Part shown: piece by piece, positions 2,941 to 27,844 of the stretch | Position numbering within the stretch: the first letter of the stretch is position 1 | How the letters are laid out: the number at the start of each line of letters is the position of its first letter | From: an uncultured Chloroflexia bacterium | GTDB lineage: Bacteria > Chloroflexota > Dehalococcoidia > GIF9 > UBA5629 | Reading direction: 5' to 3' | Length of the DNA stretch: 64,000 nt | NCBI GenBank assembly: GCA_963848815.1 | Contig: CAWKFY010000033.1 | Span: 23,959-87,958 of the forward strand | Position numbers and translations under genes: made by a program | The notes under the pieces: generated by a model | What the model was told of the DNA's origin: nothing | Database searches by the model: none | Seen by the model: only the letters and a program-made list of their open reading frames with translations

Positions 2941-3180
2941 CTATCTGCCGGGTGCGATGCAATGGCTATCGCCCCATGCCCCTGCGCACACGCTTGAATT
3001 GTTGCCCCTGGTCAGGTTCTCGGATTGAGTGCAAGAGCATTTGCCCCAGCTCTGGTTGTACGGAAGTGTCCAGTTGTCGGAGACGCTTGCGGAAGAAGGC
3101 GTGGCCTCGAAGGCGGCGACTACCATCAAACACGCGGCCGCGGCCAACAGAGACATTGCAAATAATTTAACCGTCTTCAT
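2941..3180 (-). CDS. Small secreted Cys-rich peptide, paralog 1 (79 aa)
   Basis: Start MKTVKLF at 3180 follows a purine-rich GGAAAGAGAG. Hydrophobic N-terminus ends in 'PSSA'. The mature part has 4 Cys and ends 'CIAPGR'. It is a paralog of 4277-4573 with shared blocks DNWT(L/M)PYNQ.WG, ENLT and AWG(D/N)S.CIAPGR. Confidence 0.7.
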   Translation of the reverse strand: MKTVKLFAMSLLAAAACLMVVAAFEATPSSASVSDNWTLPYNQSWGKCSCTQSENLTRGNNSSVCAGAWGDSHCIAPGR

Positions 3181-3254
3181 AGTTTTGCTCTCTTTCCGAT
3201 ATGAAGTTTTTCCCCCTTCCTGTAAAAGAGCATAGCACCGGACATATAAAATAA

Positions 3255-3294
3255 TTGCAAAATTGCGGCCGAAAAGATTGCGAATATATGACAA
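3255..3294 (-). promoter_or_regulatory. Conserved 40-nt upstream box, copy 1
   Basis: TTGCAAAATTGCGGCCGAAAAGATTGCGAATATATGACAA is 37/40 identical to 4659-4698. It lies 75-114 nt upstream of the peptide start at 3180 and 68 nt upstream of the divergent lipoprotein pseudogene. Confidence 0.55.
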
Positions 3295-3361
3295 TGCGTC
3301 TGCGGTACCGGATTCTTATTCTGCAGGTAACTTTTCCTATATAATTAACAGTAGATTGGGA

Positions 3362-4044
3362 ATGGAACGGAAAGATACAATTATCATGCTGGCAGCCTTG
3401 CTGGCCAGCGCCCTGGCTGCAGCAGGCTGCATTAATTCTGCTGTTCAACCTGGGGATAATTCATCAATTACGGCCACACCAACATCTGGAAACTCAGCCG
3501 GAATAAGCTCAGTCGACGCAATGTCGTCAAACGGTCTGAAACTTTCTCTGTCGCTCGACTCGACAACGCTTCGCTCCGGGCAGGAAGTGACGATAAGCAT
3601 CGACGAGCGGAATACATTGCCGGTAGAGAATAAAGTTCTTTAGTCGCACAACTGGGCGTATAGGCGGATTAAGCCTGGGTCCGTGCGGAACTATCAACTA
3701 TCCTTTCGGAGTGGCTATCTTTCAAGGAGATTATTCCTCCGCCGATGTTTCAACGGCCAAACCGCTGCAGCTTTACGACCCTGGCGCAACGTATCACTGC
3801 CCTATGATATTAGCTGTAACTGCGTACAATTTTCAGCCTTCCGGAGACGTTGCCGCTATTTTCGATAGCGGCAATTCTGCTCCTTTCAGCACTGCTCAGA
3901 TGAAGGCGGAGGTTAGGGCGAGCGGATACTGGACAGGCAACCCGTCTGCGACCCTGACCGACTTTACTCCCGGGGTTTATACCGTAGTTAGCCGGGGACG
4001 AATGGGGCACAACGGCAGTGCTTCATTTCGTTGTATCCAGGTAA
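3362..4044 (+). pseudogene. Decayed lipoprotein, X-module paralog of the N-terminal half of 7937-9605
   Basis: Lipobox 'LAAAGC'. Track ORFs 3263-3643 and 3711-4088 are pieces of one gene. Compared with the paralog it has an in-frame TAG at 3641-3643 (GCT in the paralog), a +1 shift near 3655-3670 and a +1 shift near 3990. The restored C-terminus is 'AGDEWGTTAVLHFVVSR*'. Confidence 0.7.
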
Positions 4045-4113
4045 AAGATATCCTGGACTGCCGGCATACCTGCTATAATTCCTCCTGAAGTGAATTTAGT
4101 AAGGAGACAAAAT

Positions 4114-4221
4114 ATGGGAAGCAAAGGCAGAAGAAACGAAAAAAAACCTAAGAAACAAGTGGAATCCAAGAAACAAATAGGCAAGGCGCCGGATAATTCA
4201 GGACAGAAGAAAAAATTCTAG
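4114..4221 (+). CDS. Possible 35-aa lysine-rich miniprotein
   Basis: ATG lies 6 nt after a strong AAGGAGA. Sequence is MGSKGRRNEKKPKKQVESKKQIGKAPDNSGQKKKF. It is below the ORF-track length cut-off and I recognise no homolog. Confidence 0.3.
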   Translation: MGSKGRRNEKKPKKQVESKKQIGKAPDNSGQKKKF

Positions 4222-4276
4222 TTTCCTTAATACTAGACAACAGCATTTCGGCCGGCCATAGCAGTCGCAGATAAAC

Positions 4277-4573
4277 CTACCTGCCCGGTGCGATGCAGCG
4301 GCTGTTGCCCCAGGCGGTGGCGCATGTGCCGAAGTTATTACTGGGCGTCAGGTTCTCGGCCGGGGTGCATGAACTCTGGCCCCAGGAAACAGCACAGCCG
4401 ATGAAACTGCCCCCGTTCCCGGCGGCGCTATTACCCCAGAACTGATTGTAAGGCATGGTCCAGTTGTCGTAGCCCACGTATGCCGAGGACGGCGCAACAT
4501 CGAAGGCGGCAATTACCGCCAGGCATGCCACCAGCGCAAGCATTGACAGTCCCAATATTCTAAACATCTTCAT
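4277..4573 (-). CDS. Small secreted Cys-rich peptide, paralog 2 (98 aa)
   Basis: Hydrophobic N-terminus followed by 'PSSA', 4 Cys in the mature part and a C-terminal 'CIAPGR'. Paralog of 2941-3180. Confidence 0.7.
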   Translation of the reverse strand: MKMFRILGLSMLALVACLAVIAAFDVAPSSAYVGYDNWTMPYNQFWGNSAAGNGGSFIGCAVSWGQSSCTPAENLTPSNNFGTCATAWGNSRCIAPGR

Positions 4574-4658
4574 GGCTTTACCCTCTTATCCCTATATATC
4601 TCAATATACATCAAGTTGGCCTTCATGTATACGATTATAGTATTAGCGTATTAAAAAG

Positions 4659-4698
4659 TTGCAAAATTGCGGCCGAAAAGATGGCAAATATATAACAA
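4659..4698 (-). promoter_or_regulatory. Conserved 40-nt upstream box, copy 2
   Basis: TTGCAAAATTGCGGCCGAAAAGATGGCAAATATATAACAA lies 86-125 nt upstream of the start at 4573. On the minus strand a TTGCAA is followed about 19 nt later by TATAAT. Confidence 0.55.
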
Positions 4699-4746: not shown

Positions 4747-5544
4747 TTATTGTTTGATGTCGTTGGCCGTCATTTTGCGTTGCCGTATAAATAAAACTAT
4801 GAAAATGATCACGGCGGCTATGATGACCCCGATGGCCGTTAACTGCGCCTGTTTCAGGCCGAGGAACACCACCTCGTTGTCCCGCCAGGTAAACACGATT
4901 ATTTGACTTACGGAATAGCCCAGGACGTAGATAAAAAACAGGATGCCCGGCTTCAGCTTGTTGCGTAACCACCAGAGAAGGCCGAATAGCAATATGTCTA
5001 TTAAGGCCTCATAAACCGCCGCCGGATGGTAGGCTATGTCATGGCGGGGTGCGAACGAGTAGGGGTTGGCGTACACCACTCCCCAGGGAAGGTTGGTAGG
5101 GTAACCGATGACGTCCCCGTTGATTAAATTGCCTATGCGCCCGAAGAATTGGCCTACGACAGCGAAAAGCGCCATGACGTCCAGGAGTTTCAAGATTGAG
5201 ATTTTGAGCCGCCGGCACACAATTATCAGCGTGATCAGCACTGCGAAGATGGCCCCGTAGAAGGCCATACCCCCTTCCCAGAATGCCAGGATGCGCCACG
5301 GCTCCGCCAGGTACGGTCCCAGGGGCTGCTGGATGACATAATATAGCCTGGCGCCGACCAGCCCGGCGGGGATGCTCCAATAGACGACCGTTTCCATCTG
5401 GCTCTGAGTCAACCCCCTGGACATGGCATAAGGCCATGCCACCAGCAGTCCGACCGCAATGCCCACGACGTACATCAAGCCGTACCAGTGGACGGCCAGG
5501 GGGCCGAGCGAAAATGCCACAGGGTTTATATTGATAATTATCAT
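4747..5544 (-). CDS. lgt: Prolipoprotein diacylglyceryl transferase
   Basis: 265-aa membrane protein with Lgt hallmarks 'HWYGLMY', 'FGRIGNLINGD' and 'HPAAVYE'. Confidence 0.9.
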   Translation of the reverse strand: MIIININPVAFSLGPLAVHWYGLMYVVGIAVGLLVAWPYAMSRGLTQSQMETVVYWSIPAGLVGARLYYVIQQPLGPYLAEPWRILAFWEGGMAFYGAIFAVLITLIIVCRRLKISILKLLDVMALFAVVGQFFGRIGNLINGDVIGYPTNLPWGVVYANPYSFAPRHDIAYHPAAVYEALIDILLFGLLWWLRNKLKPGILFFIYVLGYSVSQIIVFTWRDNEVVFLGLKQAQLTAIGVIIAAVIIFIVLFIRQRKMTANDIKQ

Positions 5545-5656: not shown

Positions 5657-6730
5657 TCACGGCTTAACATTTATTGTAAAACCGACATCGGTCCAGGCTT
5701 TATCATTCAACCAGCATATGTAAATAAATTGATATGTCCCGGGTGCAACCTCGTGAGTGGTTCTTATTGTAATCGTCGGATGATAGATAGTATTGTTGTA
5801 TATAGCGAATTCCGACGGTTCCATGGTTATATCCAAACCGGAGACCATGGGAAGATAATTTGCTGAAAGTCCCTCTTGGCTAAACGATTGGGAGCCCGGT
5901 CCCACCCTGTCAAGAGTGAACCTGCATCTGGTCCCCTGTTCTATATCTTTAAGGACTTTATAGGTTAAGTTGAGGCTATTTGTTTCGCCAGCCGCCAAAT
6001 CAACCGAATAATTATCAGTTGAAATTCTCGACTGTCGAAAGATAGATACACCAGGTATTACACCTATTCTCCCGGTGGTGGATACAAATATGGGTAGAGA
6101 GTCTGTATCTATTTCATCTCCAAGTGTGGCGACAGCCTCAATGGGTGTACCCAATGCCCGGAATATGAAAGACCCATCTTTTTCTTCATTTAGTTGCATA
6201 CCGTTGACCTTGACAATAGCCTGAGAATTTGAGACAGAGCCGGTGATGGTCAGTGGCACTTTACTGTAATCTGTGGTGCGGTCATAGTGCGGCCAATTCA
6301 AATTAACCGTCAGTGGCGGTGAAAAAGTCAGAGTGATTGAGTTACTTGTAATACTGGTTCCCTGGCCGGTTTTTATCTCTATCTTGTTTATTCCTGGCGT
6401 CAAGTCCAAAAAGACGTAATAGTTGCCGTCCTGATCGATGACGGCCGGAATATCATTAACCGTAACATCTATGTCCGACGAGGGAACACTTCCTGTGAAC
6501 TTGACCAGATTCACGTGAACTGTCTTGCAGTCTGAATTAGCATTGATTATTGCCGGGGCCTGCTGGTAGGTGGGCTGAGGGTTTTCGGAAATATTTTCCC
6601 AAGCCGGCGACGCCGGTTTAGAAGTTATATTTTCCGCAGCAGTCGTCGTCGCAGGTTTTACAATACAACCTGAAAGTGCCAGGATGCAGGAGATAGCAAG
6701 CACGCCCAAAGTAATCGGCTTCGTATCCAT
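5657..6730 (-). CDS. Lipoprotein with repeated beta-rich (Ig-like) segments
   Basis: Signal peptide plus lipobox 'LALSGC'. The rest is Thr/Ser/Asn/Val-rich beta-type sequence with no catalytic motif. Confidence 0.65.
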   Translation of the reverse strand: MDTKPITLGVLAISCILALSGCIVKPATTTAAENITSKPASPAWENISENPQPTYQQAPAIINANSDCKTVHVNLVKFTGSVPSSDIDVTVNDIPAVIDQDGNYYVFLDLTPGINKIEIKTGQGTSITSNSITLTFSPPLTVNLNWPHYDRTTDYSKVPLTITGSVSNSQAIVKVNGMQLNEEKDGSFIFRALGTPIEAVATLGDEIDTDSLPIFVSTTGRIGVIPGVSIFRQSRISTDNYSVDLAAGETNSLNLTYKVLKDIEQGTRCRFTLDRVGPGSQSFSQEGLSANYLPMVSGLDITMEPSEFAIYNNTIYHPTITIRTTHEVAPGTYQFIYICWLNDKAWTDVGFTINVKP

Positions 6731-6873
6731 TATTCCTCCCCATTCCGCTTGTTATGGCATTACTATAATACGCTTCTGTGATTTCGTACGCCAATCCCTT
6801 GCGACCCTATTAAATCCGGGTTGACGCCGGTCGAAAAATGGTATAGCTTATAAGACAATCACAGGCAAGGGAG

Positions 6874-7926
6874 ATGGATTTCAAAATGTTAAATGTGCGG
6901 GCTGCCTCAATAGTTTTTCTGTTTGCTTTACTGTCTTTTACGGGTTGCGTTCAGACGGTCCAGCCGCTGACGCCGCCGGTTTCAGGTACTGTATCTGCCT
7001 CCACTGATAATTCCAGCGCGCAGAGCAGTGCCGCAACTTCCAATTCTCCTCTTCCGCCACTGGTCCCGCCCGGTAGGGGCGGCGTATATTCTGTGGGGCT
7101 GGCTATTTCACCGGATAAAACGGCTTACCCATCAGGAGAACTCGTTCAATTGAATGTGACAGTGATGAACAATTCATCGCTGAATTCGCAGCCGGTCACT
7201 ATCAATCCGTATCCGCCCCGCATAGACCTTGAAGTGCCGGTGTCCCCTGCTACGGGAGCTACGGATCTCTGGAGGCTATCGAACAGTGTGATAAAGACTT
7301 TTCCTGCCGGGACCGGCACAAAAACTTTTATTGCAGGGGAAAATATAACTTATCAATTGACCTGGGACCAGAAAGATAACGATGGTAAACAGGTGTCGCC
7401 ATGCTGGTATTTTTTCGACTATAAATTACAAGCTAATAACGGGTCCCAAAATTGGGGTTCCGGTGGAGCCGGTAAGGTATTACTCATCCAGTACCCGCAG
7501 GGCGCCATGAAGAAAACGATCCAGGTAAACCAATCCAAAAGAATAGAAAATCTGACCCTATCGATGGATGGAGGCGGGAGCCGGTCGATTGACCTTGTAT
7601 TACAACTCAAGCAAGTTGTGCTGAATGATATGGGCGCCAGCTTCCTGGTAGTTGCCAGCTCTCCCAGTCATCCCACGCCGGATTACAACGGCATAGGATG
7701 GGCCGGCTCTTCCGAAGCTGAATATATCGTTGACGGCGTTACTAAATATGCGAGGAGCGCTAATAGCCAGGTTACAGGCAACGGAGTTCAGCTGCGCTGG
7801 GGCGACGTAAATAATAAAGATTACTATCTTGATCCTATCCCCGCGGACGCCAAACAGCTTGTATTTATAATGACAGGTTTTGCCAACTGGAAAGGGCCAT
7901 GGCAATTTCAGGTTCCACTTCGGTGA
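6874..7926 (+). CDS. Lipoprotein, Y-module only
   Basis: RBS AAGGGAG and lipobox 'LSFTGC'. Paralog of the C-terminal half of 7937-9605, with shared blocks 'IKTFPAG', 'TWDQKDNDGKQ', 'LIQYPQGAM', 'VNQSKRI' and 'GFANWKGPW.FQVPL'. Confidence 0.7.
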   Translation: MDFKMLNVRAASIVFLFALLSFTGCVQTVQPLTPPVSGTVSASTDNSSAQSSAATSNSPLPPLVPPGRGGVYSVGLAISPDKTAYPSGELVQLNVTVMNNSSLNSQPVTINPYPPRIDLEVPVSPATGATDLWRLSNSVIKTFPAGTGTKTFIAGENITYQLTWDQKDNDGKQVSPCWYFFDYKLQANNGSQNWGSGGAGKVLLIQYPQGAMKKTIQVNQSKRIENLTLSMDGGGSRSIDLVLQLKQVVLNDMGASFLVVASSPSHPTPDYNGIGWAGSSEAEYIVDGVTKYARSANSQVTGNGVQLRWGDVNNKDYYLDPIPADAKQLVFIMTGFANWKGPWQFQVPLR

Positions 7927-7936
7927 GGGGATAAGA

Positions 7937-9605
7937 ATGAGACGTAAAAATGGAACTATTGCAGTAGTATTGCTGCTTGGTGCGTTAGCTGCAGCACTGG
8001 GTTGCGGCAATGCAACTACTCAAGCTAAGACCGATAACACCTCGTCCACCATACCTGCCCCAAACGCTTCATTAACCACCCCCGCACCTCCTTCACCCAC
8101 GACTGAGGACTTCGTTGGAATAAGTTCAAACGCTTCATTGTCGCTAAACGGTCTGAAACTTTCTCTGTCGCTTAACTCGACAACCTTTCAGCTCGGGGAG
8201 GAAGTATCGATAGTTATCGACGAACAGAATACATTGCCGGTCGAAAATAAGGTCCTTGCTTCGCAAAGCTGGCCGCTGGAGGGATTGAGCCTGGGTCCAT
8301 GCGGGACTATCAACTATCCTTTCGGCATAGCTATCTTTCAGGGCAATTATTCCGCTGCCGATATTTCAACGGCAAAACGGCTAATGCTTTATGACCCCGG
8401 CGCAACTTATCATTGTCCCGCGATGATAGCTGGAATCACTGCTTATGATTTTCAGCCTACGAGCGATATGGCCTCTATTTTCGATAGCTACGATCCTGAT
8501 CCGTTTGGTCCCACTCAAATAATATCGGAAGTTTCGGCGAAGGGATACTGGATCGGCAGCCCTGCTGCAACTCTAACCAACTTCCCTCCAGGGGTTTATA
8601 CAGTGGTGGCTGGAGATGAATGGGGCACAACTGGCAGTGCTTCATTTCGTTGTCGCCGTTCAGACAGCCCAGCAATTTCAGTTGGGTCCGCCTTATTACG
8701 TTGGCCCTCCATCAGACATTCCCACCGGGCCGGCGCACCCATTGTATTCTGTGCGGCTGGACCTCTTGCCTGGTAAAACGATGTACGCATTTGGCGAGCC
8801 CGCGCAAATGAATGTAACTCTAACGAACGAGTCGTCGCCGGATGCGGAAAAGGTCACTATCGCACCGTTTCCACCTCGCATAGATATTGTGCTGGCGGAG
8901 GAATGGGCCCCGGGGGAACCGCCCAAAAGTATCCCTAACCCCATAGCACTACCTGAATTTCCCGGGCTATCGATCAAGCTGATAAAGACTTTTCCCGCCG
9001 GAGACGGCGTTAAGATATTCAGTAATGGGGAAAATGTTACTTTTCAATTGACCTGGGACCAGAAGGATAACGATGGGAAGCAGATGTCGCCGGGCTATTA
9101 TTCTTACCAATATGATTATAGAATCGGTTCAGGCTCGGTCATTCAGTCCGGTCAGGGGGGAGGTGGAAAGGCATGCCTTATCCAGTACCCGCAGGGAGCC
9201 ATGCAAAAAATCATCGAGGTTAACCAGTCCAAAAGGATAAACAATCTGCCTTTGCAGACGGATAGCGGAAGCCGGCCGGTTGACCTGGTACTTGAACTCA
9301 AGCAGGTAGTCCTGAGAGAGGAAGGCTCCAGCTTTCTGGTAGTTGGCAGTTCGCCCAACAAACCCGCTACGGGTTACAGCGATGGTTGGACTGGTATGTG
9401 TGTTGCAAGATATGTGGTAGACGGAGTCACTAAAGATGCGCGCAGCGCGATCACACAGGTTACAGATAATGGAATTGTGCTGCGCTGGGGAGGAGAAGAT
9501 AACTGGCTTGACCCTGTGCCTGCGGACGCCAAACAGCTTTCACTCGTGATTCTGGGTTTCGCTAATTGGAAAGGGCCGTGGGAATTTCAGGTTCCTCTTA
9601 AGTGA
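7937..9605 (+). pseudogene. Lipoprotein with fused X and Y modules, interrupted by one +1 frameshift near 8632
   Basis: Lipobox 'LAAALGC'. Track ORFs 7880-8776 and 8616-9605 join if the T at 8632 is removed (ACAACTGGCAGTG here, ACAACGGCAGTG in the paralog at about 4005). Total length is 1669 nt, which is 3n+1. Confidence 0.6.
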
Positions 9606-12664: not shown

Positions 12665-13915
12665 CTAAAATTACTTCACCTCCCATGCTTTTCAGGACGT
12701 CCCAGAACTCGGGCCAGGTCTTGGAGACGCATTCGGCGCCCTCTATTATGGTGTCGCCCGCCAGCACACCCAGGATGCTGAAGGCCATGGCGATGCGGTG
12801 GTCTCCCTTCGAATCTACGCGGCGCCCCTCAGGCGTCCGCCCATGATGAAAAGGCTATAGCGGCCCTCGCTCACGTGGATGCCCATGCGCTCCAGTCCCT
12901 CGCTGACGGCCGCTATCCGGTCGGACTCCTTGAGCCGGGCGCGCTCGATGCCGCTCAGCTCGCTGACTCCAGGCGTGGCCGCGCAAAGCGCCGCCACCGT
13001 GGGCAGCAGGTCGATGCAGTCGGAGAGGTCGGCCTTGAGCGGCTTCAAATCGGACTTTTTAACCGTGACTGAGTCGTGATCGGGATAGATATTGGCGCCC
13101 ATGCGTTTCATCAGGCTCAACAGGGCCGGTCGGCCTGGCGGCTTTCGATATTCAAATTGCCTACATTCGCCTCGCCTGCCACGGCGCCCAGCGCCAGCAG
13201 GTAGGATGCCGATGACCAGTCTCCCTCCACTCTGTAGCGTGGTGGGGTGATAGCTCTGCCGTTCTGCCGTGAAGCTGCGCAGCGTGTCGTCCGGCTTTAT
13301 TTTCACGCCGAACTCTTTCATGCAGTCCAGCGTCATCATGATGTAAGGGACCGACTCAGGCGGCGTGGTCAGCTCGATCTTCATTTGCTGTGGGGCCAGC
13401 GGCGCGATGAAGAGCAGGGCCGAAACGAACTGCGAGCTGATATCGCCCGGCAGGACGGCCGTGCCGCCCTTCAGGCCGCCCTCCACCGTCACGGGGGCCA
13501 TGCCCCTTTCAGATCGGCAGTTAACGCCCACCTGTTGCAGGGCCTCGACCAGCGGGCCGACGGGACGTCCGGCCAGCGACGGGCCCGGCCGTCAGCCGGC
13601 AGGCGCCCGGCACCAGCGAGCAGACCGCCGTCATGAAGCGCAGCGTGCCCGCCGAGTCCCGGCAATACAGGTCGGAGTCCGGCTTTTTAAAATGCCCGCC
13701 CTGTGACCAGCCAGGCATCGCTGCCGTCCTCGATGCCGACGCCGATCTTGCCCAGCACATCGCGGGCGGCCTCGGTATCGTCGGCAGGCAGGGGGCTGAC
13801 GATTTCGCTCGGCCTTGGCCAGTGCGGCGCACACCAGGCCGCGCAGCGTGTAGCTCTTGGAGGAGGGCGCTTTCACCTTCCCCTGTATGTTGCTCTTAGA
13901 TATGAGCGCCCGCAT
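12654..13915 (-). pseudogene. aroA: 3-phosphoshikimate 1-carboxyvinyltransferase (EPSP synthase), frame broken at >=6 sites
   Basis: Track ORFs 13631-13915, 13521-13832 and 12815-13531 plus an unlisted tail give a continuous EPSPS-like protein only after frame changes. The changes fall near 13806-13812, 13694-13702, 13578-13586, 13228-13236, 13124-13131 and 12824-12838. The restored C-terminus 'VDSKGDHRIAMAF...GGEVILDGK*' stops at 12654 and overlaps the aroC start. Confidence 0.85.
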
Positions 13916-14429
13916 TATTTCCTCCGCCGCTGTGCAATTTGATCCACGATATCCTGCACGGACAGGTCGGACGTGTCAACCGTAATATCGGCGGCGTTCT
14001 CATATAAAGGCCTGCGGTAACTTGAGAAGCTCCTGTACGGCCGCCGCCGGGTCGGGCACTTCCAGCAGGGGACGTTTTTCGCCGCCCCAGGCCACGCGCT
14101 TCAGCGCTACCGACGGCAGTACCTTAAGGTAGACGATATCGCATGTCTCTTTAAGCGCAGCGATATTGGCGGGGTTGAGCACGATACCGCCGCCGCAGGC
14201 GATGACGGCCCCCTTCTTCCCGGCCGCTTCCAGCGCTACCTCGGCCTCGATCTTGCGGAAGGCCGGCTCGCCCTCCTCCTCGAATATCTGCGGCAATGGA
14301 CTTGCGGCATTTCTCCGTAACCAGCGCATCGAGCTCGACGAACTCCATATTGAGACTGTCGGCCAGCGCCCTGCCTACGGCGGATTTTCCCGCGCCCATG
14401 AAGCCTATCAGGGCTATATTACTTTTCAT
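13915..14429 (-). pseudogene. aroK: Shikimate kinase, frame broken at 2 sites
   Basis: Walker A 'GFMGAGKS'. Track ORFs 14151-14429 and 14000-14329 plus a tail join with shifts near 14290-14297 and 14012-14022. The restored end '...DIVDQIAQRRRK*' overlaps the aroA ATG as TAATG. Confidence 0.85.
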
Positions 14430-15296
14430 GTCCCTTTCAGCGCCTCAACCGCTGCTTTCCTCATAATATCGACGGGGGCCTTATGGCCGGTCCATTTCTC
14501 GAAGGCCAGTGCGCCCTGCCAGACCAGCATGTCCAGCCCGTTGACTGTCGCAGCGCCGGCTTTCGCCGCCTCCTTCAGAAGCCGCGTTTCAACGGGGTTG
14601 TAAACTATGTCCACCACCGTATGCTGCGGCCCGATGAGATCGCCTTTGACCAGGGTCTCGTCCGGTTCGGGCGACATGCCCACGCTGGTGGTGTTAACCA
14701 GGATGTGGCCCTTTTTCAGGGCGGTTGTAATATTCTGCCGGTCTAAGGGCATGGCCTCAGCCGGGTGCCCGGCGGTTTTCATAATATCCCCCACCAGGCG
14801 GGCGGCCCTGCCCGACGTCCTGTTCAATATGATGAGCGCCACTCCTGCGGTGGATAGTGCGAAGCAGACTGCCCTGGCTGCGCCGCCCGAGCCGAGGATA
14901 ACCGCAGTCTTGCCCCTGACTTCGACGTTATGTTCTTTCAGAGCTCGCATGAAACCTTCGGCATCCGTGTTATAGCCTTTGAGCATACTGCTATCGTTGA
15001 TAATCACGTTCACTGCGCCGATGGAGCGTGCCGGAGGGTCTATCTCATCCAGCAGAGGTATGACTTTTACCTTGTAGGGGATGGTGACGTTGATCCCCCG
15101 GATACTGAGCGCCCGCATGCCCTGCACGGCGGCTGCCAGGTGCCTGGGTGGAACCCTGAACGGCAGATATGACATAGTCCAGTCCCAGCGCTTTGAAGGC
15201 GGCGTTGTGCATGGCCGGCGACACGGTATGTTCGACGGGGTCGCCGATGACTCCGCAGACCGTGGTCTTGCCGGTTATCTCGGGCCATGTGTTCAT
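14426..15296 (-). pseudogene. aroE: Shikimate 5-dehydrogenase, frame broken at 1 site
   Basis: The N-terminus '[34 protein letters not shown]' (inside track ORF 15045-15461) joins ORF 14426-15175 ('YLPFRV...NVTIPYK...GSGGAARA') with a shift near 15168-15174. Confidence 0.85.
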
Positions 15297-15946
15297 CCGC
15301 CAACCCCAGCAGCCTGCGCATGACTTCAGCCGGCACCTGGCCGGGTGCGGACTCTTTGCCACTCCCTGTGGAAGCGTAAGTAAAATAGCTGCCCGCCCAC
15401 GGCGACAGCACGCGGCTGAGCCTCCCCTCTGCGCCCATGGCGAAGGAAACGATCCTGGCACTGGGGAAGCACGCGGATAATTTCGAGCACGGGGATGTTA
15501 TCCTCGATCTTGACGGCTGTGGTCACAAGCTTGCAAATGTCGGCGCCGGCCTTGATCTGCCGACGTACTATGGCCGCCAGTTCATCCGTTGAGGGCGTGC
15601 CCTGCCAGTCATGGTGCGAGATGATGCATCTGGCCTTTTTTTTGATCTGTGGCACAATATCTTTCAGATCCTCGGCATTGAGCTCAATATCGATGATATC
15701 GGCGCCCAGATTGGCTGCCGAAAGGAGCTCCCTAATCCTGCCTTCCTCACCCGCCCTCCATTTTCCGTGCTCATTCACGCTGCGATTGGCGGCTATCCAG
15801 GGCTTTTTGAGCGCAGGTACGATCTCACGCCAGCCTTCCCCGATCATATCTATGCGTACCTCGAAGAGGTCGGCCAATCCGGCGGCGCTTTTAAGCGAAC
15901 TGACGTCATTGTCTGTTATAACCGTGCAGATCTTAAGTCTCTTCAT
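15293..15946 (-). pseudogene. aroD: 3-dehydroquinate dehydratase type I, frame broken at 1 clear site and probably a second
   Basis: ORF 15326-15946 loses homology after '[12 protein letters not shown]'. The continuation '[30 protein letters not shown]' is in the frame of ORF 15067-15438, with the shift near 15458-15468. The 3' end at 15293 is inferred from a TGA overlapping the aroE ATG, which needs one more shift near 15300-15325. Confidence 0.75.
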
Positions 15947-20761: not shown

Positions 20762-21856
20762 CTAACTGAATAGCACCGGCAAAAGGACGACGAAGTAAAT
20801 CGCCATCATCACGAGCCCCACCGGCACGCCGATAAGGGCCCACTCCTTCATGGTTATTTTCAAGCGTCCCGCCGCCACAATGTTGGGTATATTCCCCGGT
20901 ATGAGCATGCCGCCTGAAATAAGCAGGGCTATCACGGCACCGATTATTTGAGAAAGCTGCAGTCCGGGGCTGATCTCTATAGCCGTCAACGTAGCATTAT
21001 CCAGGAAAGAGGAGAGCAGGTTGATCCAGTATAGAGCCCAGGCGGGGACCATGCCTAAAAATAGTGTGAAGAGCGGTCCCAAACCTGCGCCCAGCAATAT
21101 CAGCGCAAATATAAATATATATACCTTAAAGGACCGGATAACGACGGTTTTCACAGATTCAGAGGCGTTTGATTGGGCTTCGGAGAGTGCAATGCCGCAA
21201 CGCGGCAGCAGGCTGCCCGCAATTGCGATCAGTATTATGCCCGGCAGTATGTAAAGGCCGAGTGTGGTAAGAGGGAAGAAAAAGCCGGCATTATAGGGCG
21301 GTCCGCTGAGCTTATAGACCAGGATTGTGGATAAAGGCTCCCCTATCGGCGTCAGGCCGGCGCCGAGCCCTATGGCGAAGCAAGATATAACAGCTATTTT
21401 GACCTTGTCCTGGCGGCTGAACGGCAGGATAATCAGCAGTTCGGCCAGTATGACCGATGTGGCTATGACCGAGAGGACGCTGGAAAGCAGGCCGAGCAGC
21501 AGGATCGTCAAGAACAGGAATAGTCCGGGACGCAGCTTCCGGTAAACCCGGGTGACCAGGCCGTATAACCTGTGGTCGAAATAGTGTATGAGCAGCCCGA
21601 ACAGCAGGACGACCTGGAAAATGCCTATTGGGGCCGAGCCGATTGTTACAGGCGCTTTCAAGGCTTCCAGCAGTACATCGACGGACCAGCCGCCGGAAAT
21701 GGTCAGGGCGGCAACTCCCATGACCAGAAAGAAATATTCAATGTAGTCGTTGACCAGCCGGAAAATGAAGGGGAAAAGCAGGGTTATCAGGGTTATCAGG
21801 GACAGCAGCACTATCTGGTAGATGGGGATGGATGGGCCGGCATACTCATACAGCAT
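20762..21856 (-). CDS. Polytopic membrane protein, DUF1646-like predicted cation transporter
   Basis: 364 aa with about 10 TM segments. The family assignment is from memory of size and architecture and was not verified. Confidence 0.45.
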   Translation of the reverse strand: MLYEYAGPSIPIYQIVLLSLITLITLLFPFIFRLVNDYIEYFFLVMGVAALTISGGWSVDVLLEALKAPVTIGSAPIGIFQVVLLFGLLIHYFDHRLYGLVTRVYRKLRPGLFLFLTILLLGLLSSVLSVIATSVILAELLIILPFSRQDKVKIAVISCFAIGLGAGLTPIGEPLSTILVYKLSGPPYNAGFFFPLTTLGLYILPGIILIAIAGSLLPRCGIALSEAQSNASESVKTVVIRSFKVYIFIFALILLGAGLGPLFTLFLGMVPAWALYWINLLSSFLDNATLTAIEISPGLQLSQIIGAVIALLISGGMLIPGNIPNIVAAGRLKITMKEWALIGVPVGLVMMAIYFVVLLPVLFS

Positions 21857-21861
21857 GGATG

Positions 21862-22347
21862 CTAGCGTCTCACCTTATTCCCGGCATGAGGGACTTTATT
21901 GAGCGGCAGCACCCTGATGAGCAGGACCGGTACATAACAATAGTGGATCAGCTTGTCCGCTACGCTGCCCATGATCCAGCGTTCGACGCCCGACCTTCCG
22001 TGCGTGGCCATAATTATGAGGTCGAAATCATGTCCGTTGGCGTAGTCGATCAGGCTCTCGTCCGCCTTTCCTTCGAGAAAGGTGGTACTGGTTGAAATCC
22101 CTTTGTCAACGAAATATTTTTTAATCCTGCGAAGGTACGCCATGGAGTGGTTTTTGGACCTTTTGTTATATTCTGCAATGTTTTCTTCATCGAATACCAT
22201 GCCTCCGTGCGGGGGCATTTCAAATTGCTCGAAGACTGTTATAAGTTCAATGCTGGAGTGTCTTGTTTTCGCGATATCCTCCACATAAGGGAAAACGCTT
22301 TCGGCAAGTTTAGAGCCATCGAGAGGCACCATAATTTTACTGAACAT
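21862..22347 (-). CDS. Universal stress protein
   Basis: Start 'MFSKIMVPLDGS' follows AGGAGG. The C-terminal 'MATHGRSGVERWIMGSVADKL' is the Usp ATP-binding motif. Confidence 0.8.
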   Translation of the reverse strand: MFSKIMVPLDGSKLAESVFPYVEDIAKTRHSSIELITVFEQFEMPPHGGMVFDEENIAEYNKRSKNHSMAYLRRIKKYFVDKGISTSTTFLEGKADESLIDYANGHDFDLIIMATHGRSGVERWIMGSVADKLIHYCYVPVLLIRVLPLNKVPHAGNKVRR

Positions 22348-22467
22348 GATCCTCCTCACTAAAGGTAATAATCTGCATCCCATCTTATTTCAACGGATGT
22401 AATTTGGCAACAGGTGTGTAAACGTGGCCGTCAACCAGCTGCTGCCCGAAGGTTTCCAGTAGCCGCC

Positions 22468-24360
22468 CTATGCCTCGATCATTTCCACAACGCCGGCATG
22501 GCTACGATAAGTACGGATGACATCCTCTATGCACAACATGCCCACCAGCTTCAAAGGATGTTCTTCATCAAGCACAGGCAGGTGGCTGATATTGTTCCTG
22601 CTCATGCGTTCAAGAGCAACATCCAGGGATTCATGTGAGTAGCATACTATCAGCTTGGTGGTCATGACATCCGCAGCCGTTTTAAATTCCCTGTCTTTTT
22701 TGGGCACCTGTACCATATCAAGGTTGGCAACGATTCCGATAATGGCCCCTTCCTGCATAACGGGGACGGCATCCACCCTTTTGTCTTGGAACAAGATTTG
22801 TACGTCCGTTAATTTTGTCTCAGGGATTACGGAAGCCAGCACGGTATGCATTGCATCCTGGACCATCAGCCTTGTCAGCAGGGGAACGGAGTACTCGGCC
22901 TTGTGCGCAGGAGAGGCGGCCCGGTTGGCGACCTGGTTCTCGTAGATATAGCTATTTCCGGAGGAAAAATAAGCTATAACAACGGCGATCATGCATGGCG
23001 CCAGCAGGACATAGCTGTTGGTCATCTCGCTGACCATGATCATAATGGCCAGGGGAGCCTTGGCGATGCCGCCGAAAAGCGCCATCATGCCCACGATTAC
23101 GAAGGCGTCTGGGCTGGGCGTTACAATGGCCGGGACGCCTTTGAGCAGCCACCAGACTATGGCGCCTACCATGCCACCTATTACCAGCCCGGGAGCAAAG
23201 ACGCCGCCGCTGCCTCCGGAACCGATGGACAGCCCGGTGGCTAGGATTTTACCCACCAGTATACCGAGCATTAAGAATATGGGGAGCACGGCAAAATTGC
23301 CGTCTATGCCGAGCTGGACCCATCCGTAGCCCTGGCCCAGTACCTGCGGTAGAAACATGCCTATAATGCCTACCCCGAATCCGCCGATAGCCGGCTTTAA
23401 ATAGTCGGGGATCTTCCAAGCCTTAAACAGGTCGCGTATTTTATAGAAAGTGCGGCCGTAGAGCAGGCCCACCAGGCCGCAGGCCAGCCCGAGAACAACG
23501 TAGCCTGCAAGCTGAAGCGGGCTTTCGAAGGCCAGGCCGGGTGGTATGGTGAAAATGGGTTGCCAGCCGTTGAAGGATGCGAAGATCACATATCCTATGA
23601 TCGAGGCGACGAAAGAAGGGAAGATGGCCTCGATCTCGAAATCACGCCTGTAAAGCACCTCCGTGCCCAGCAGTGCGCCGCCGAGCGGCGCTTTAAATAT
23701 AGAACCTATGCCGGCGCCGATGCCGATGGTCAGTGCAATTCTCCGGTCACGGTCATTAAGCTTGAATGCGTCCCCCAGTATCGATCCAAAGCCGGCGCTT
23801 ATCAATGCCACGGGCCCTTCTCTGCCGGCGCTGCCGCCGGAGCCGATCGTAACTGCTGAAGCAATAATTTTGATGGGGGGCACACGGGCGCGGATATGAC
23901 CCCGCTTGTGATGAAAAGCATTGATGGCGGCATCGGTACCATGGCCTTCGGCCTCAGGGGCGAATTTGAATACGATCAGGCCGCTTATAAGCCCTCCCAG
24001 CGTGGTCACCAGTGGGATGGCCCAGAGCCTGGTGATAGTTGTTACAATGGTAGGGCCTTCACCGCCGGGGACCGGCGCGGTGTAACCGGCCAGGTATCCC
24101 AGGAAAAGCTGCGAGGCCCATTGAATCAGCAGGTAAAATATAATCGAGCCGAAGCCTGCCACCATCCCTATTAATACGCCGATGATCAGCCACTTGCGCA
24201 GGTAACCGATATCCATCAGCCCGGTGAAACGGGAGAAGATGTTTTTCAGGATATTGTAGGCGCGCAGTATGCGGGTGCTAAGACGTAGGAAACCTATATA
24301 GAGGGATTTTCTGAGATTATCTAACATTAATATCCGCTTAAAAATTATATACCGGCGCAC
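22468..24360 (-). CDS. ClC chloride channel / H+-Cl- antiporter with C-terminal CBS pair
   Basis: 'GSGGSAGREGP' and 'GIFAPGL'-type motifs ('GGVFAPGLVIGG'), then two CBS-like segments. The true start may be internal (MLDNL...). Confidence 0.85.
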   Translation of the reverse strand: MRRYIIFKRILMLDNLRKSLYIGFLRLSTRILRAYNILKNIFSRFTGLMDIGYLRKWLIIGVLIGMVAGFGSIIFYLLIQWASQLFLGYLAGYTAPVPGGEGPTIVTTITRLWAIPLVTTLGGLISGLIVFKFAPEAEGHGTDAAINAFHHKRGHIRARVPPIKIIASAVTIGSGGSAGREGPVALISAGFGSILGDAFKLNDRDRRIALTIGIGAGIGSIFKAPLGGALLGTEVLYRRDFEIEAIFPSFVASIIGYVIFASFNGWQPIFTIPPGLAFESPLQLAGYVVLGLACGLVGLLYGRTFYKIRDLFKAWKIPDYLKPAIGGFGVGIIGMFLPQVLGQGYGWVQLGIDGNFAVLPIFLMLGILVGKILATGLSIGSGGSGGVFAPGLVIGGMVGAIVWWLLKGVPAIVTPSPDAFVIVGMMALFGGIAKAPLAIMIMVSEMTNSYVLLAPCMIAVVIAYFSSGNSYIYENQVANRAASPAHKAEYSVPLLTRLMVQDAMHTVLASVIPETKLTDVQILFQDKRVDAVPVMQEGAIIGIVANLDMVQVPKKDREFKTAADVMTTKLIVCYSHESLDVALERMSRNNISHLPVLDEEHPLKLVGMLCIEDVIRTYRSHAGVVEMIEA

Positions 24361-24388
24361 CGGCTGAATCCATCATCGGGAAGGGACG

Positions 24389-25636
24389 CTAAAGGTTGAT
24401 TACATCTTCAGGGTGATTAAGCGCGACAAACAGCAGCAGGTATTCTTTCAGGTGCCGCGTAATCAGGAAATTTTGCTTGACGTGCTGCATGCCGTTTTTC
24501 CCCAGCCGCTCCGCCAGGTCGGGATTGCCCAACAACTGCTTTAACGCGTAAGCGGCTCCTTCTACGCTGTGGCAGAGAAGGCCTGTGAACTTGTTCTTGA
24601 TCTGAAGCGGAATGCCGCCGACCGCGCTGGCCACGACAGGCTTGCTTTTCCACAGGGCTTCACTGATGGTCAGCCCGAAGCCCTCCTTGAGCGACTTCTG
24701 GAAAATGACCGTGGCTGCCCGCTGCAAAGCGTTTATCTCAACATCGCTTCCCGGCGGTATCAGAAGCACCTTAATGTCCGGGTTGCCGTCGGCGCGGTTC
24801 ATGACGTCGTTGAGTACCATTGTGCACTCCGGGTCATCCGTGGCCGTTCCACCCGCCAAGATCAGCTGACAGTCGAATCCTTTGCGGACCATTTCGAACG
24901 CCTCGATCACGCCCAGCGGGTCCTTTAAATAGTCGAATCTCGATATTTGCACCACCATGGGCTTCCCAGGGTCCAGGCCGTACTTGTTCAGCACCTCATC
25001 GATCTGCTTGCCGGTAAGTTCCTTATTCTTGTCGCTCAAGGGGTCGATAGAAGGCGAAATCAGGAACTGACGGATGGGCAATCGGGGAGAAAAGGAAGGC
25101 GCCGAAAAGACGGCAGCATCGTATTTGACAACGAACTGGTTGAGGAACTTCCATACCTGCTCATCCGGGTGCGATAAGTCTATGTGGCAGCGCCATATCC
25201 ATTGTCCGCCCACCTTCTGCTTTTGGGAGATCAATGCCGCCGGCTGGGGGTCGTGGATAAACATGATATCGGCGCCCAGGCTCATTTCTGCGATGTTTTT
25301 GCGGGTCGTATCCATGAAAAGATCAAAATCTTCACCGGAAATATTTTCGTGCTGTCCGTGAAGGGCGTTGTGGAATTTCTTGGTTACATCGAAGAAGGCG
25401 CTGTCACCCTCTATTACGTCCCAGCGGGCATCCAGGCCCAACTGATTGAGCAGCGGCACCATGCGGTTAAGTATTTCCGCCACGCCTCCACCTGAGAAGG
25501 TGGAGTTAATATTCTGAATCTTCTTGCCGGAAAGGTATCCTCCAATCAGCTTCAATTCATCGATCACGCTCTTGCCCACGATGGGTTGATAATCATCTAT
25601 TTTGGTTGCAAAGTGGCCTATCGTATCTGTTATCAT
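24389..25636 (-). CDS. treT: Trehalose synthase, TreT-type GT4 glycosyltransferase
   Basis: Matches my recollection of archaeal TreT along its length: 'NSTFSGGGVAEIL', 'FFDVTKKFHNALHG', 'HDPQPAAL', 'WRCHIDLS' and 'REGFGLT..EA.WK.KPV'. Confidence 0.75.
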   Translation of the reverse strand: MITDTIGHFATKIDDYQPIVGKSVIDELKLIGGYLSGKKIQNINSTFSGGGVAEILNRMVPLLNQLGLDARWDVIEGDSAFFDVTKKFHNALHGQHENISGEDFDLFMDTTRKNIAEMSLGADIMFIHDPQPAALISQKQKVGGQWIWRCHIDLSHPDEQVWKFLNQFVVKYDAAVFSAPSFSPRLPIRQFLISPSIDPLSDKNKELTGKQIDEVLNKYGLDPGKPMVVQISRFDYLKDPLGVIEAFEMVRKGFDCQLILAGGTATDDPECTMVLNDVMNRADGNPDIKVLLIPPGSDVEINALQRAATVIFQKSLKEGFGLTISEALWKSKPVVASAVGGIPLQIKNKFTGLLCHSVEGAAYALKQLLGNPDLAERLGKNGMQHVKQNFLITRHLKEYLLLFVALNHPEDVINL

Positions 25637-25643
25637 ACCGTTT

Positions 25644-27017: not shown

Positions 27018-27030
27018 ACAAAGTTCTTCC

Positions 27031-27831: not shown

Positions 27832-27844
27832 GAATTTCGAAAAG

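What the first reader, a model, noticed from the sequence alone, without database searches (positions are those of the whole stretch)
2941..4698. Pair of small secreted four-Cys peptides with a shared CIAPGR C-terminus, conserved N-x-T sequons and a near-identical 40-nt upstream box
Peptide similarity:
- The two minus-strand genes (2941-3180, 79 aa; 4277-4573, 98 aa) both have a hydrophobic leader ending in PSSA.
- They share the blocks DNWT(L/M)PYNQ.WG, C(T/S)..ENLT..NN...CA.AWG(D/N)S.CIAPGR, four mature-region Cys, and an identical C-terminal hexapeptide.
- Paralog 2 carries an extra Gly/Ser/Ala-rich insert.
- The NWT and NLT sequons are conserved in both.

Shared upstream box:
- Each gene is preceded, about 75-125 nt upstream of its start, by a box that is 37/40 identical between the two copies: TTGCAAAATTGCGGCCGAAAAGAT(T/G)GC(G/A)AATATAT(G/A)ACAA.
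- This implies common regulation, or recent duplication of the peptide gene together with its control region.

Context:
- The genes sit among lipoprotein genes and lgt.
- I do not recognise the peptide family. Possible roles include a disulfide-knotted envelope or adhesion peptide, a bacteriocin-like or signalling peptide, or a glycopeptide. All of these are speculative.
Basis: seen in the sequence. Interest (0 to 1): 0.7.

Follow-up and report, generated by a model that had tools for sequence, protein, structure and literature searches.

The report
Orphan secreted four-cysteine peptide pair
Two small paralogous genes in an uncultured peat/soil Dehalococcoidia genome encode exported four-cysteine peptides of a tiny family with no known relatives, each driven by a promoter box found only in front of this family; the genes are real and well conserved, but their function is unknown and nothing points to an exotic mechanism.

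Summary
ORFs 2941-3180 (79 aa) and 4277-4573 (98 aa), both on the minus strand, are 50% identical paralogues. Each has a Sec-type leader ending in PSSA, four mature-region Cys and a CIAPGR terminus. Each is preceded by a 40-nt box that is 37/40 identical between the two copies.

The family is very small: about 18 clusters among 5.8 billion proteins, all from Dehalococcoidia MAGs, with no Pfam, NCBIfam, PDB, PHROG or PADLOC match. Genomes carry up to three copies (long, short and a second short). Selection is purifying (dN/dS 0.14-0.49) although synonymous sites are near saturation, so the duplication is old.

In scans of 185,579 species genomes and of JGI metagenomes, the box occurs in this lineage only 74-86 nt upstream of family genes (7/7 and 5/5 hits). 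It ends 19-20 nt before a conserved TATAAT-like -10 and has no RNA structure, so it is most likely a family-specific promoter/operator.

No neighbouring gene is conserved. A radical-SAM/methyltransferase pair sits next to the long gene in one lineage only. AlphaFold gives no confident fold.

My best reading is Sec-exported, signal-peptidase-I-processed peptides of 48 and 67 aa that work outside the cytoplasm and are co-regulated. Bacteriocin, RiPP, glycopeptide and lipoprotein readings are weaker. The family is new but ordinary in kind.

The parts
2941..3180 (-). Short-form precursor gene (79 aa, = P0006), including the stop codon
   Evidence: ORF list. Orthologues are 63-80% identical in other Dehalococcoidia MAGs. 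dN/dS is 0.14-0.19 against orthologues.
3088..3180 (-). Signal peptide of the short form (31 aa; K2/K5 n-region, 19-residue hydrophobic core, c-region TPSSA with S at -3 and A at -1)
   Evidence: Mean Kyte-Doolittle hydropathy of the core is 2.49. AlphaFold predicts a helix at residues 2-26 with pLDDT 73-79. P28, S29 and A31 are invariant in the alignment. Cleavage itself is inferred.
2944..3087 (-). Predicted mature short peptide (48 aa, 5.1 kDa, pI 6.5, four Cys, two WGxS/C units, C-terminal CIAPGR)
3255..3294 (-). Box copy 1. On the gene strand it reads TTGTCATATATTCGCAATCTTTTCGGCCGCAATTTTGCAA.
   Evidence: It is 39/40 identical to the orthologous box in L001.
3229..3237 (-). Putative extended -10 element (TGcTATGCT), 20 nt downstream of the TTGCAA that ends the box
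   Evidence: The TAT..T columns are invariant in alignment A4. Assigned by reading the sequence; the simple promoter scan did not call it because the spacing is outside 16-18 nt.
4277..4573 (-). Long-form precursor gene (98 aa, = P0001), including the stop codon
   Evidence: ORF list. Orthologues are 62-76% identical. dN/dS is 0.15-0.25. The locus is syntenic downstream of the aro operon in L011, L044 and L046.
4481..4573 (-). Signal peptide of the long form (31 aa, ends APSSA)
   Evidence: core hydropathy 2.71; S at -3 and A at -1.
4280..4480 (-). Predicted mature long peptide (67 aa, 7.1 kDa, pI 6.0, four Cys, three WGxS units)
4659..4698 (-). Box copy 2. On the gene strand it reads TTGTTATATATTTGCCATCTTTTCGGCCGCAATTTTGCAA.
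   Evidence: It is 38/40 identical to the boxes of L001 and L011.
4634..4639 (-). Putative -10 hexamer TATAAT, 19 nt downstream of the box
   Evidence: Alignment A4 and sequence reading.
4574..4633 (-). Conserved 5' leader of about 60 nt. It contains GAAGG, an optional short upstream ORF (ATG at 4611-4609, TGA overlapping the main ATG) and the Shine-Dalgarno sequence AAGAGGG at 4581-4587.
   Evidence: Alignments A4 and A5. No conserved RNA structure.

Best explanation
The two genes are paralogous members of a lineage-restricted family that is core and vertically inherited, with up to three loci per genome.

Each is a single-gene unit.
- Transcription starts from a TATAAT-like -10.
- Upstream of it, at roughly -37 to -76, lies a 40-bp element specific to this family.
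- The element ends in TTGCAA, which is 19-20 bp from the -10. That is too far for a good -35, so an unidentified DNA-binding activator, or less likely a repressor, probably acts there and co-regulates the paralogues.

The products are exported by Sec, cut by signal peptidase I after P-S-x-A, and released as neutral peptides of 48 and 67 residues rich in Gly, Ser, Asn and Trp. They are built from two or three WGxS(x)C units. Their four Cys form two disulfides or a four-thiolate site.

I infer that they act outside the cytoplasm as envelope-associated structural or ligand-binding peptides, not as toxins or enzyme-modified natural products.

Shown here: the genes, their conservation and purifying selection, the specificity of the box, and the absence of conserved partner genes.
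Inferred: export, the cleavage site, Cys chemistry, activator dependence and the biological role.
For: The genes are real:
- Paralogy is clear.
- dN/dS is 0.14-0.49 while dS is 0.3-1.7.
- The long form sits at the same syntenic position after the aro operon in at least five lineages.

Export:
- The leader has the n/h/c architecture of a Sec signal, with invariant P, S and A at -4, -3 and -1.
- AlphaFold models it as a helix.

Cys chemistry:
- All 17 close members keep exactly four mature Cys, although the first Cys lies at non-homologous positions in the short (KCSC) and long (GC...SSC) forms. This points to selection on Cys number.

The box:
- Mean pairwise identity is 35.3/40, against about 45-54% expected at neutral sites of the same lineages.
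- The 22-nt core is 100% identical between the window, L001 and L011.
- 7/7 genome hits and 5/5 metagenome hits in this lineage lie 74-86 nt upstream of a family ATG.
- A complete 2.46-Mb chromosome has this pattern only twice, before its linked long and short genes. Its third copy (P0021, L035) carries a diverged box that the pattern does not match.
- It has no RNA structure: alignment fold -1.0 kcal/mol, single-sequence z-score -0.98.

Against toxin or natural-product readings:
- No neighbour is conserved.
- The mature peptides are neutral (pI 6.0-6.5) and have no hydrophobic segment.
- No mobile-element association was found.
Against: - There is no expression, secretion or cleavage data.
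- AlphaFold gives pLDDT below 50 for the mature parts with both alignments, so no fold supports a defined binding module.
- The distant relatives P0018 and P0022 keep only one mature Cys, so disulfides are not ancestral to the wider family.
- The host class is largely anaerobic, and no extracytoplasmic thiol oxidase was seen in the window.
- The regulator is unidentified, and the box shows no clean dyad or direct-repeat symmetry.
- One long-form orthologue (L005) has lost the box but keeps the -10 and the leader, so the box is not indispensable.
- 'Envelope-associated structural or ligand-binding' is a guess by elimination.
Confidence: 0.5

Rival explanations
1. Sec-dependent unmodified (class II-like) bacteriocins. 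The peptides are exported by Sec and kill competitors. The box is the target of a quorum-sensing response regulator.
For: The peptides are small, carry a Sec leader and Cys pairs, and have their own promoter with an upstream conserved element. Sec-dependent class II bacteriocins exist (PMC3546714). In one lineage a PAS histidine kinase and an OmpR-type regulator lie about 1 kb upstream.
Against: - There is no YGNGV box and no similarity to any bacteriocin family.
- The mature peptides are neutral and hydrophilic.
- No conserved downstream immunity gene or transporter is present.
- The genes are core, syntenic and under purifying selection rather than strain-variable.
- The two-component system is absent from the other loci and from the window's neighbourhood.
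Confidence: 0.12
2. Precursors of an enzyme-modified peptide (RiPP). A radical-SAM/SPASM enzyme, possibly with a methyltransferase, crosslinks Cys or Trp residues before or during export.
For: - In the L001/L002/L004 lineage a radical-SAM/SPASM gene and a class I methyltransferase start about 130 nt after the long gene on the same strand.
- A leftover 3' end of an older long gene lies behind the methyltransferase and is closer to the window's copy. This suggests that long gene + radical SAM + methyltransferase arrived together as one block.
- The peptides are rich in Cys, Trp and Ser and have a strongly conserved C-terminus.
Against: - The radical-SAM pair is absent next to the peptides in the window (tblastn) and in L005, L011, L044, L046, L008 and L035.
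- The enzyme's best matches are heme-pathway NirJ/AhbD-type models, all far below their cut-offs.
- The leader is a Sec signal, not a recognition leader, and no RRE protein, peptidase or transporter is linked.
Confidence: 0.08
3. N-glycosylated secreted peptides. The conserved N-x-T/S sites are real glycan acceptor sites.
For: The first sequon is kept in 17/17 close members while its middle residue varies (W, L, S). The second is kept in 15/17 with L/V/A/I and T/S variation.
Against: - The second sequon is lost in P0019 and P0020, and both are absent in P0018 and P0022.
- The acidic residue is at -1, not at the -2 position required by the bacterial PglB sequon D/E-x-N-x-S/T (sequence reading plus general knowledge).
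- No oligosaccharyltransferase or linked glycosyltransferase is in the window. The only GT genes are trehalose synthesis genes about 20 kb away.
- N-linked glycosylation is not known to me in Chloroflexota (from memory; the literature search found nothing).
Confidence: 0.07
4. Lipid-anchored small proteins. Cys17 in the leader is a lipobox Cys, processed by Lgt and signal peptidase II, so the peptide stays tethered to the membrane.
For: Cys17 is conserved in most members. A permissive PROSITE-like lipobox fits 14/19 sequences, and the window's long form has a strict L-V-A-C. lgt lies directly upstream of the long gene in the window.
Against: - A strict lipobox is present in only 2/19 members.
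- P0008 has Ser in place of the Cys, and P0010 and P0021 fail even the permissive pattern.
- The seven residues after the Cys are strongly hydrophobic (mean hydropathy 1.9-3.0), against 0.5 in a genuine lipoprotein of the same window.
- A conserved P-S-x-A signal-peptidase-I site follows the hydrophobic core.
- The lgt adjacency is not conserved.
Confidence: 0.1
5. Sec-exported signalling (pheromone) precursors. The conserved C-terminal CIAPGR would be released and sensed, feeding back on the box-containing promoters.
For: The C-terminal hexapeptide is strongly conserved, export is Sec-type, a dedicated promoter element is shared by all paralogues, and the -35/-10 spacing is too long, as is typical of activator-dependent promoters (the analogy to Phr and agr systems is from memory).
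Against: The whole mature region is conserved, not only the tail. No receptor, Rap-like protein or oligopeptide permease is linked. The tail varies in some members (CVVPGK, CTLSSR, CIAPDR).
Confidence: 0.08

Closest known systems
Sec-dependent class II bacteriocins (enterocin P, hiracin JM79, bacteriocin 31)
   Same: These are small precursors with a cleavable Sec signal peptide and a mature peptide of about 45-70 aa stabilised by Cys pairs. Transcription is often controlled by a response regulator that binds upstream of the promoter (PMC3546714).
   Different: The window's peptides have no YGNGV/pediocin box and no sequence similarity. They are neutral rather than cationic, have no adjacent immunity gene, and are core and syntenic rather than accessory.
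Radical-SAM/SPASM-modified peptides (sactipeptides, ranthipeptides, streptide/WGK-type)
   Same: They are short Cys- and Trp-rich peptides. One lineage has a radical-SAM/SPASM gene directly downstream. Short forms even contain a W-G-K triplet.
   Different: The leader is a Sec signal. The enzyme is missing in most lineages, including the window. Its scores against peptide-maturase models are 30-60 bits, against cut-offs of 265-725.
Glycocins (sublancin, glycocin F)
   Same: They are peptides of about 40-60 aa with two disulfides and glycan acceptor residues.
   Different: From memory, glycocins have double-glycine-type leaders, paired C-x6-C motifs, and an adjacent glycosyltransferase, transporter and thiol-disulfide oxidoreductase genes. 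None of these is present here.
Hevein-like / knottin carbohydrate-binding mini-proteins
   Same: They are small Cys-stabilised peptides rich in Gly, Ser and aromatic residues. The local motif S-W-G-x-C resembles the hevein S-x-W/F-G-W/Y-C core (from memory).
   Different: Cys number and spacing differ. There is no Pfam Chitin_bind_1 hit even at E <= 10, and no confident fold to compare.
Pfam DUF3551 (PF12071) and big defensin (PDB 2rng)
   Same: These are the only database matches of any kind: E 0.063 (13.8 bits) and E 0.031 (17.9 bits).
   Different: Both are far below threshold (the DUF3551 gathering score is 26.5) and mainly cover the hydrophobic leader. I treat them as chance.

Membership tests
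Class IIa / Sec-dependent class II bacteriocins | N-terminal YGNGV(L)xCxK/NxxC 'pediocin box' (PMC3546714) | tested here: not met
   The motif is absent from all 19 family sequences, and there is no bacteriocin family hit in Pfam or NCBIfam.
Class IIa / Sec-dependent class II bacteriocins | Immunity gene in the same operon or next to the structural gene (PMC3546714) | tested here: not met
   The downstream genes differ in every lineage: MFS, a broken lipoprotein gene, PEMT-like, ADH, radical SAM, or a 125-aa/FMN reductase pair on the opposite strand.
Class IIa / Sec-dependent class II bacteriocins | Antimicrobial activity of the mature peptide | not testable with these tools
   This needs purified peptide and indicator strains.
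Radical-SAM/SPASM RiPP precursors | Maturase gene conserved next to the precursor across the family | tested here: not met
   It is present only in L001, L002 and L004. It is absent in the window and in L005, L008, L011, L035, L044 and L046.
Radical-SAM/SPASM RiPP precursors | The maturase scores above the cut-off of a peptide-maturase model | tested here: not met
   The best hits are NirJ2/AhbD at 87-90 bits against cut-offs of 500. Peptide-maturase models score 30-63 bits against cut-offs of 265-725.
Radical-SAM/SPASM RiPP precursors | Cytoplasmic recognition leader rather than a Sec signal | tested here: not met
   The N-terminus has the n/h/c regions and the -3/-1 rule of a Sec signal peptide.
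Bacterial N-glycoproteins (PglB type) | Extended sequon D/E-x-N-x-S/T | tested here: not met
   The sites read S-D-N-W-T and S-E-N-L-T, so the acidic residue is at -1 and not at -2.
Bacterial N-glycoproteins (PglB type) | Oligosaccharyltransferase (STT3/PglB) encoded in the genome | not tested
   None is present in the 64-kb window. The rest of the genome was not available.
Bacterial lipoproteins | Lipobox [LVI][ASTVI][GAS]C with an invariant Cys, followed by a polar linker | tested here: not met
   A strict lipobox occurs in 2/19 members, the Cys is replaced by Ser in P0008, and the residues after the Cys are hydrophobic.
Sec signal peptide / signal peptidase I substrates | Basic n-region, hydrophobic h-region, small residues at -3 and -1 | tested here: met
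   K2 and K5 (R5 in the long form) form the n-region. The 19-residue core has mean hydropathy 2.5-2.7. S at -3 and A at -1 are invariant, and Pro is at -4. No dedicated predictor such as SignalP was available.
Sigma-54 promoters (-24 GG / -12 GC) | Invariant GG-N10-GC | tested here: not met
   The window's box fits GG-N10-GC (CGGCCGCAATTTTGCA). In the orthologous boxes of L005, L008 and L035, however, the GG is GA, GT or GC, and a conserved TATAAT follows.
Structured RNA leader / riboswitch | Conserved secondary structure with covariation, or an Rfam match | tested here: not met
   There are no Rfam hits. The alignment fold is -1.0 to -1.6 kcal/mol with at most one compensatory pair, and the z-score is -0.98.

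The most novel reading that the evidence does not exclude
The family could be a previously unseen class of Sec-exported peptides that are modified after translation. The modification could be radical-SAM crosslinking or methylation, as the cassette in one lineage hints, or glycosylation at the conserved DNWT site. Such peptides might serve uncultured peat Dehalococcoidia as a dedicated signal or metal/ligand-binding factor, switched on through their own 40-bp operator by an unknown regulator.
Probability: 0.1. Interest if true: 0.7.

Novelty: new member of a known kind. Interest (0 to 1): 0.33.

Why it matters
The family adds a well-supported orphan small-protein family to a poorly known class of bacteria that is abundant in peat and fen soils. 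It has three paralogous loci, clear purifying selection and an unusually well conserved private promoter element.

The box is a ready-made handle. DNA-affinity capture or reporter assays could identify its regulator, and with it the condition under which the peptides are made. Beyond that, nothing found here challenges current ideas, and the practical value is mainly better annotation of small secreted proteins in metagenome-assembled genomes.

Tried and rejected
- **Known families:** Pfam, NCBIfam, PHROGs, PADLOC and a PDB profile search gave only sub-threshold noise: DUF3551, an anti-sigma factor, OmpA and big defensin.
- **Remote homology:** a profile HMM search of 1.84 billion cluster representatives found only the family itself and the marginal relative P0018. 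The other hits matched the leader region of repetitive proteins.
- **Structure:** two AlphaFold runs gave mature-region pLDDT below 50 (full short form with 10 sequences; mature long form with 16 sequences). I therefore ran no fold search.
- **Mobile-element origin:** no hits in phage, plasmid or IMG/VR collections.
- **Sigma-54 promoter reading of the box:** rejected because the GG is not conserved.
- **MerR-type, CRP/FNR-type or LytTR-type site:** no consistent dyad or direct repeat was found within the box.
- **RNA leader or riboswitch:** rejected.
- **Upstream ORF in the leader:** its ATG is missing in 3 of 10 sequences and its frame and stop shift between lineages, so it is probably not a conserved coding unit.
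- **Conserved partner gene:** the 245-aa gene after P0022 and the PEMT-like gene after the L005 short form are unrelated. The two-component system, DUF3096 genes, the radical SAM/methyltransferase pair and the 35-aa basic ORF are each confined to one or two lineages.
- **Expression evidence:** short contigs gave none.
- **Literature:** searches found nothing on these peptides.
Full report
**Observation**

The minus strand carries two ORFs at 2941-3180 (79 aa) and 4277-4573 (98 aa). They are 50% identical over their full length (E 2e-31).
- Both start with a basic n-region (K2 and K5 in the short form, K2 and R5 in the long form), a 19-residue hydrophobic core and a c-region ending in PSSA.
- Both have four Cys after the leader, the blocks DNWT.PYNQ, WG, EN-L-T and CA.AWG.S.CIAPGR, and an identical last hexapeptide.
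- The long form has an extra 18-19 residues, FWGNSAAGNGGSFIGCAV.

The 40-nt box is at 3255-3294 and 4659-4698. It is 37/40 identical between the copies, occurs nowhere else in the window, and was never matched in shuffles. lgt (4747-5544) and several lipoprotein-type genes flank the pair.

**How wide the family is**

Two word-indexed searches of 5.8 billion proteins, and a third with an alignment, returned 18 clusters in all. Every named one comes from a Dehalococcoidia MAG. The records that hold them are titled as MAGs (UBA1162, fen_1075, MFD isolates) and several are JGI or ENA metagenome contigs. I read these from memory as peat, fen and soil samples, because the tool outputs do not give sample types.

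An exhaustive profile HMM search of 1.84 billion representatives found one 50%-identity cluster, one fragment and a marginal relative, P0018 (E 2e-4). The other hits only matched the leader. P0018 and P0022 (84 aa) share the leader, PY, three WGxS units and CATGWGNS. They have one mature Cys, no sequons and a different tail.

Pfam, NCBIfam, PDB, PHROGs and PADLOC give nothing above noise. There are no phage, plasmid or IMG/VR relatives.

**Are they genes?**

Pairwise Nei-Gojobori estimates between orthologues give dN/dS of 0.14-0.49 with dS of 0.3-1.7. This is clear purifying selection on the proposed frame. Some assemblies-108-aa ORFs on the opposite strand, and I take these to be artefacts.

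Genomes hold up to three copies:
- a long form;
- a short form beside it or a few kb away (window, L001, L005);
- a second short form at another locus next to an alcohol dehydrogenase and nitroreductases (L008, L035).

The long form sits at a syntenic position downstream of the aromatic amino-acid operon in the window, L011, L044 and L046. The duplication therefore predates these species. 'Recent duplication' is not the reason the boxes look alike.

**The box**

The exact 22-nt core CTTTTCGGCCGCAATTTTGCAA recurs upstream of orthologues in L001-L004 and L011-L013, and with three substitutions in L005-L010.

A degenerate core was scanned over one genome for each of 185,579 species and gave 18 hits.
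- The seven hits in Dehalococcoidia (or 'Chloroflexia'-labelled) MAGs all lie 74-86 nt before a family ATG.
- The other eleven are in unrelated bacteria (mostly Proteobacteria). The flanking sequence carries long ORFs with no family gene downstream; three of them read like M13-type peptidases. I treat these as chance matches.

A relaxed pattern scanned over JGI metagenomes gave five hits, all before family genes. The complete 2.46-Mb chromosome OY970123.1 has the pattern twice, before its linked long and short genes. Its third copy (P0021, L035) carries a diverged box (CTTTCCGCTTGCAATTTTGCAA) that the pattern does not match.

Mean pairwise identity of the nine distinct boxes is 35.3/40. Neutral sites at the observed dS would be 45-54% identical.

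The invariant positions are TTGT.ATA..TT.GC.A.CTTT..G...GC.ATTTTGCAA. The CGGCC centre varies.

Alignment A4 shows the following layout: the box, then a 19 nt (long) or 20 nt (short) spacer, then TATAAT/TATACT/TATGCT (with an upstream TG in four of the six short-form copies aligned, including both in-window-type short genes), then a conserved leader of about 60 nt with a good Shine-Dalgarno sequence.

The terminal TTGCAA is too far from the -10 to be a good -35. I therefore read the box as an activator or operator site at about -37 to -76. It is not a sigma-54 promoter, because the GG is not conserved. It is not an RNA element either (Rfam none; alignment folds -1.0 and -1.6 kcal/mol; z-score -0.98).

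No clean dyad or direct repeat was found, and no regulator gene is consistently nearby. One long-form orthologue (L005) has lost the box but keeps the -10 and the leader.

**What the products are likely to be**

The leader obeys the Sec/signal peptidase I pattern, with invariant Pro at -4, Ser at -3 and Ala at -1. AlphaFold models it as a helix. Cleavage would give peptides of 48 aa (5.1 kDa, pI 6.5) and 67 aa (7.1 kDa, pI 6.0). Both are 50-55% Gly/Ser/Asn/Ala/Thr, have several Trp/Tyr/Phe, and lack any hydrophobic or cationic segment.

All 17 close members keep four mature Cys. The first Cys sits at different, non-homologous positions in short and long forms. This suggests selection for an even Cys number, meaning two disulfides or a four-thiolate site.

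The first sequon is universal among close members. The second is lost twice. AlphaFold gives no confident fold for the mature part (pLDDT 37-47).

**Context**

In the window the neighbours are an MFS transporter, a frame-broken lipoprotein paralogue, a 35-aa basic ORF, lgt, more lipoproteins and the aro operon. Elsewhere the neighbours differ.

The only suggestive linkage is a radical-SAM/SPASM gene plus a methyltransferase directly after the long gene in L001, L002 and L004.
- A relic of an older long-gene 3' end, more like the window's, lies behind them. The block seems to have entered by recombination together with a foreign long gene.
- The enzyme resembles heme-pathway NirJ/AhbD proteins, far below every cut-off.
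- It is absent from the window and from five other lineages.

**Verdict**

The finding is real. It is an orphan, lineage-restricted family of probably secreted four-Cys peptides with a private, strongly conserved promoter element.

My best reading (confidence about 0.5) is export by Sec, cleavage by signal peptidase I, an extracytoplasmic structural or ligand-binding role, and co-regulation through the box. The rival readings each carry about 0.07-0.12: bacteriocin, RiPP, N-glycopeptide, lipoprotein and pheromone.

The family is new, but its kind (small secreted Cys-containing peptides) is familiar, and no unusual mechanism is demonstrated. Interest is moderate to low.

Noticed in passing
window 3362-3643 and 3711-4088 (+): A lipoprotein gene between the two peptide genes is split into two frames. 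Both pieces match the paralogue at 7880-8776 (49% and 64% identity). It is either a pseudogene or an indel error in the assembly.
   Followed up: partly
window 12815-15946 (-); also L046 1-2352: Several aro-operon genes look truncated or fragmented: the EPSP synthase ORF covers only profile positions 133-371, and shikimate dehydrogenase starts at profile position 27. L046, a contig from a long-read-looking ENA assembly, shows similar fragmentation. This suggests frameshift errors in the assembly rather than biology.
   Followed up: no
window 4114-4218 (+): A 35-aa extremely basic ORF (MGSKGRRNEKKPKKQVESKKQIGKAPDNSGQKKKF) is convergent with the long peptide gene. It is 94% identical in L001, L002, L004 and L024, was not found in the other loci, and has no family hit.
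   Followed up: partly
L001 8429-10361 and 10298-10468: A radical-SAM/SPASM gene plus a methyltransferase are inserted between the long and short peptide genes in one lineage. A relic of an older long-gene 3' end (…GTCATAWGNSRCIAPVR) follows them, and that relic is closer to the window's copy than the intact L001 gene is.
   Followed up: partly
window 4570-4611 (-) and the homologous leaders: A short upstream ORF (MYIEIYRDKRVKP, with its TGA overlapping the main ATG) is preceded by GAAGG. The ATG is present in 7 of 10 aligned leaders, but frame and length are not conserved.
   Followed up: partly
window 5657-9605: This is a cluster of lipoprotein genes with no Pfam family. It includes two pairs of paralogues (6874-7926 with 8616-9605; 7880-8776 with 3362-4088), which looks like a duplicated two-gene cassette. 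One has a weak BsuPI-like (proteinase inhibitor) hit.
   Followed up: no
window 20762-29323 (-); L032 10232-16029: An osmoadaptation block contains DUF1646, Usp, a ClC channel with a CBS domain, TreT-type trehalose synthase, an MscS-DUF5752 fusion, trehalose-phosphatase and OtsA. The same gene order lies near the distant family member P0022 in L032.
   Followed up: no
window 36108-37391 (+): A full-length bacterial serpin (PF00079, E 3.5e-120).
   Followed up: no
window 47094-50345 (-) and 58556-63793 (-): Two very large PAS-repeat proteins: one of 1083 aa with seven PAS domains and a GGDEF domain, and one of 1745 aa that has several PAS-like matches by tblastn.
   Followed up: no
L008 6506-7438: In one lineage the second short-form copy lies directly downstream of a phage-type integrase gene, but no phage or plasmid relatives of the peptide were found.
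   Followed up: partly
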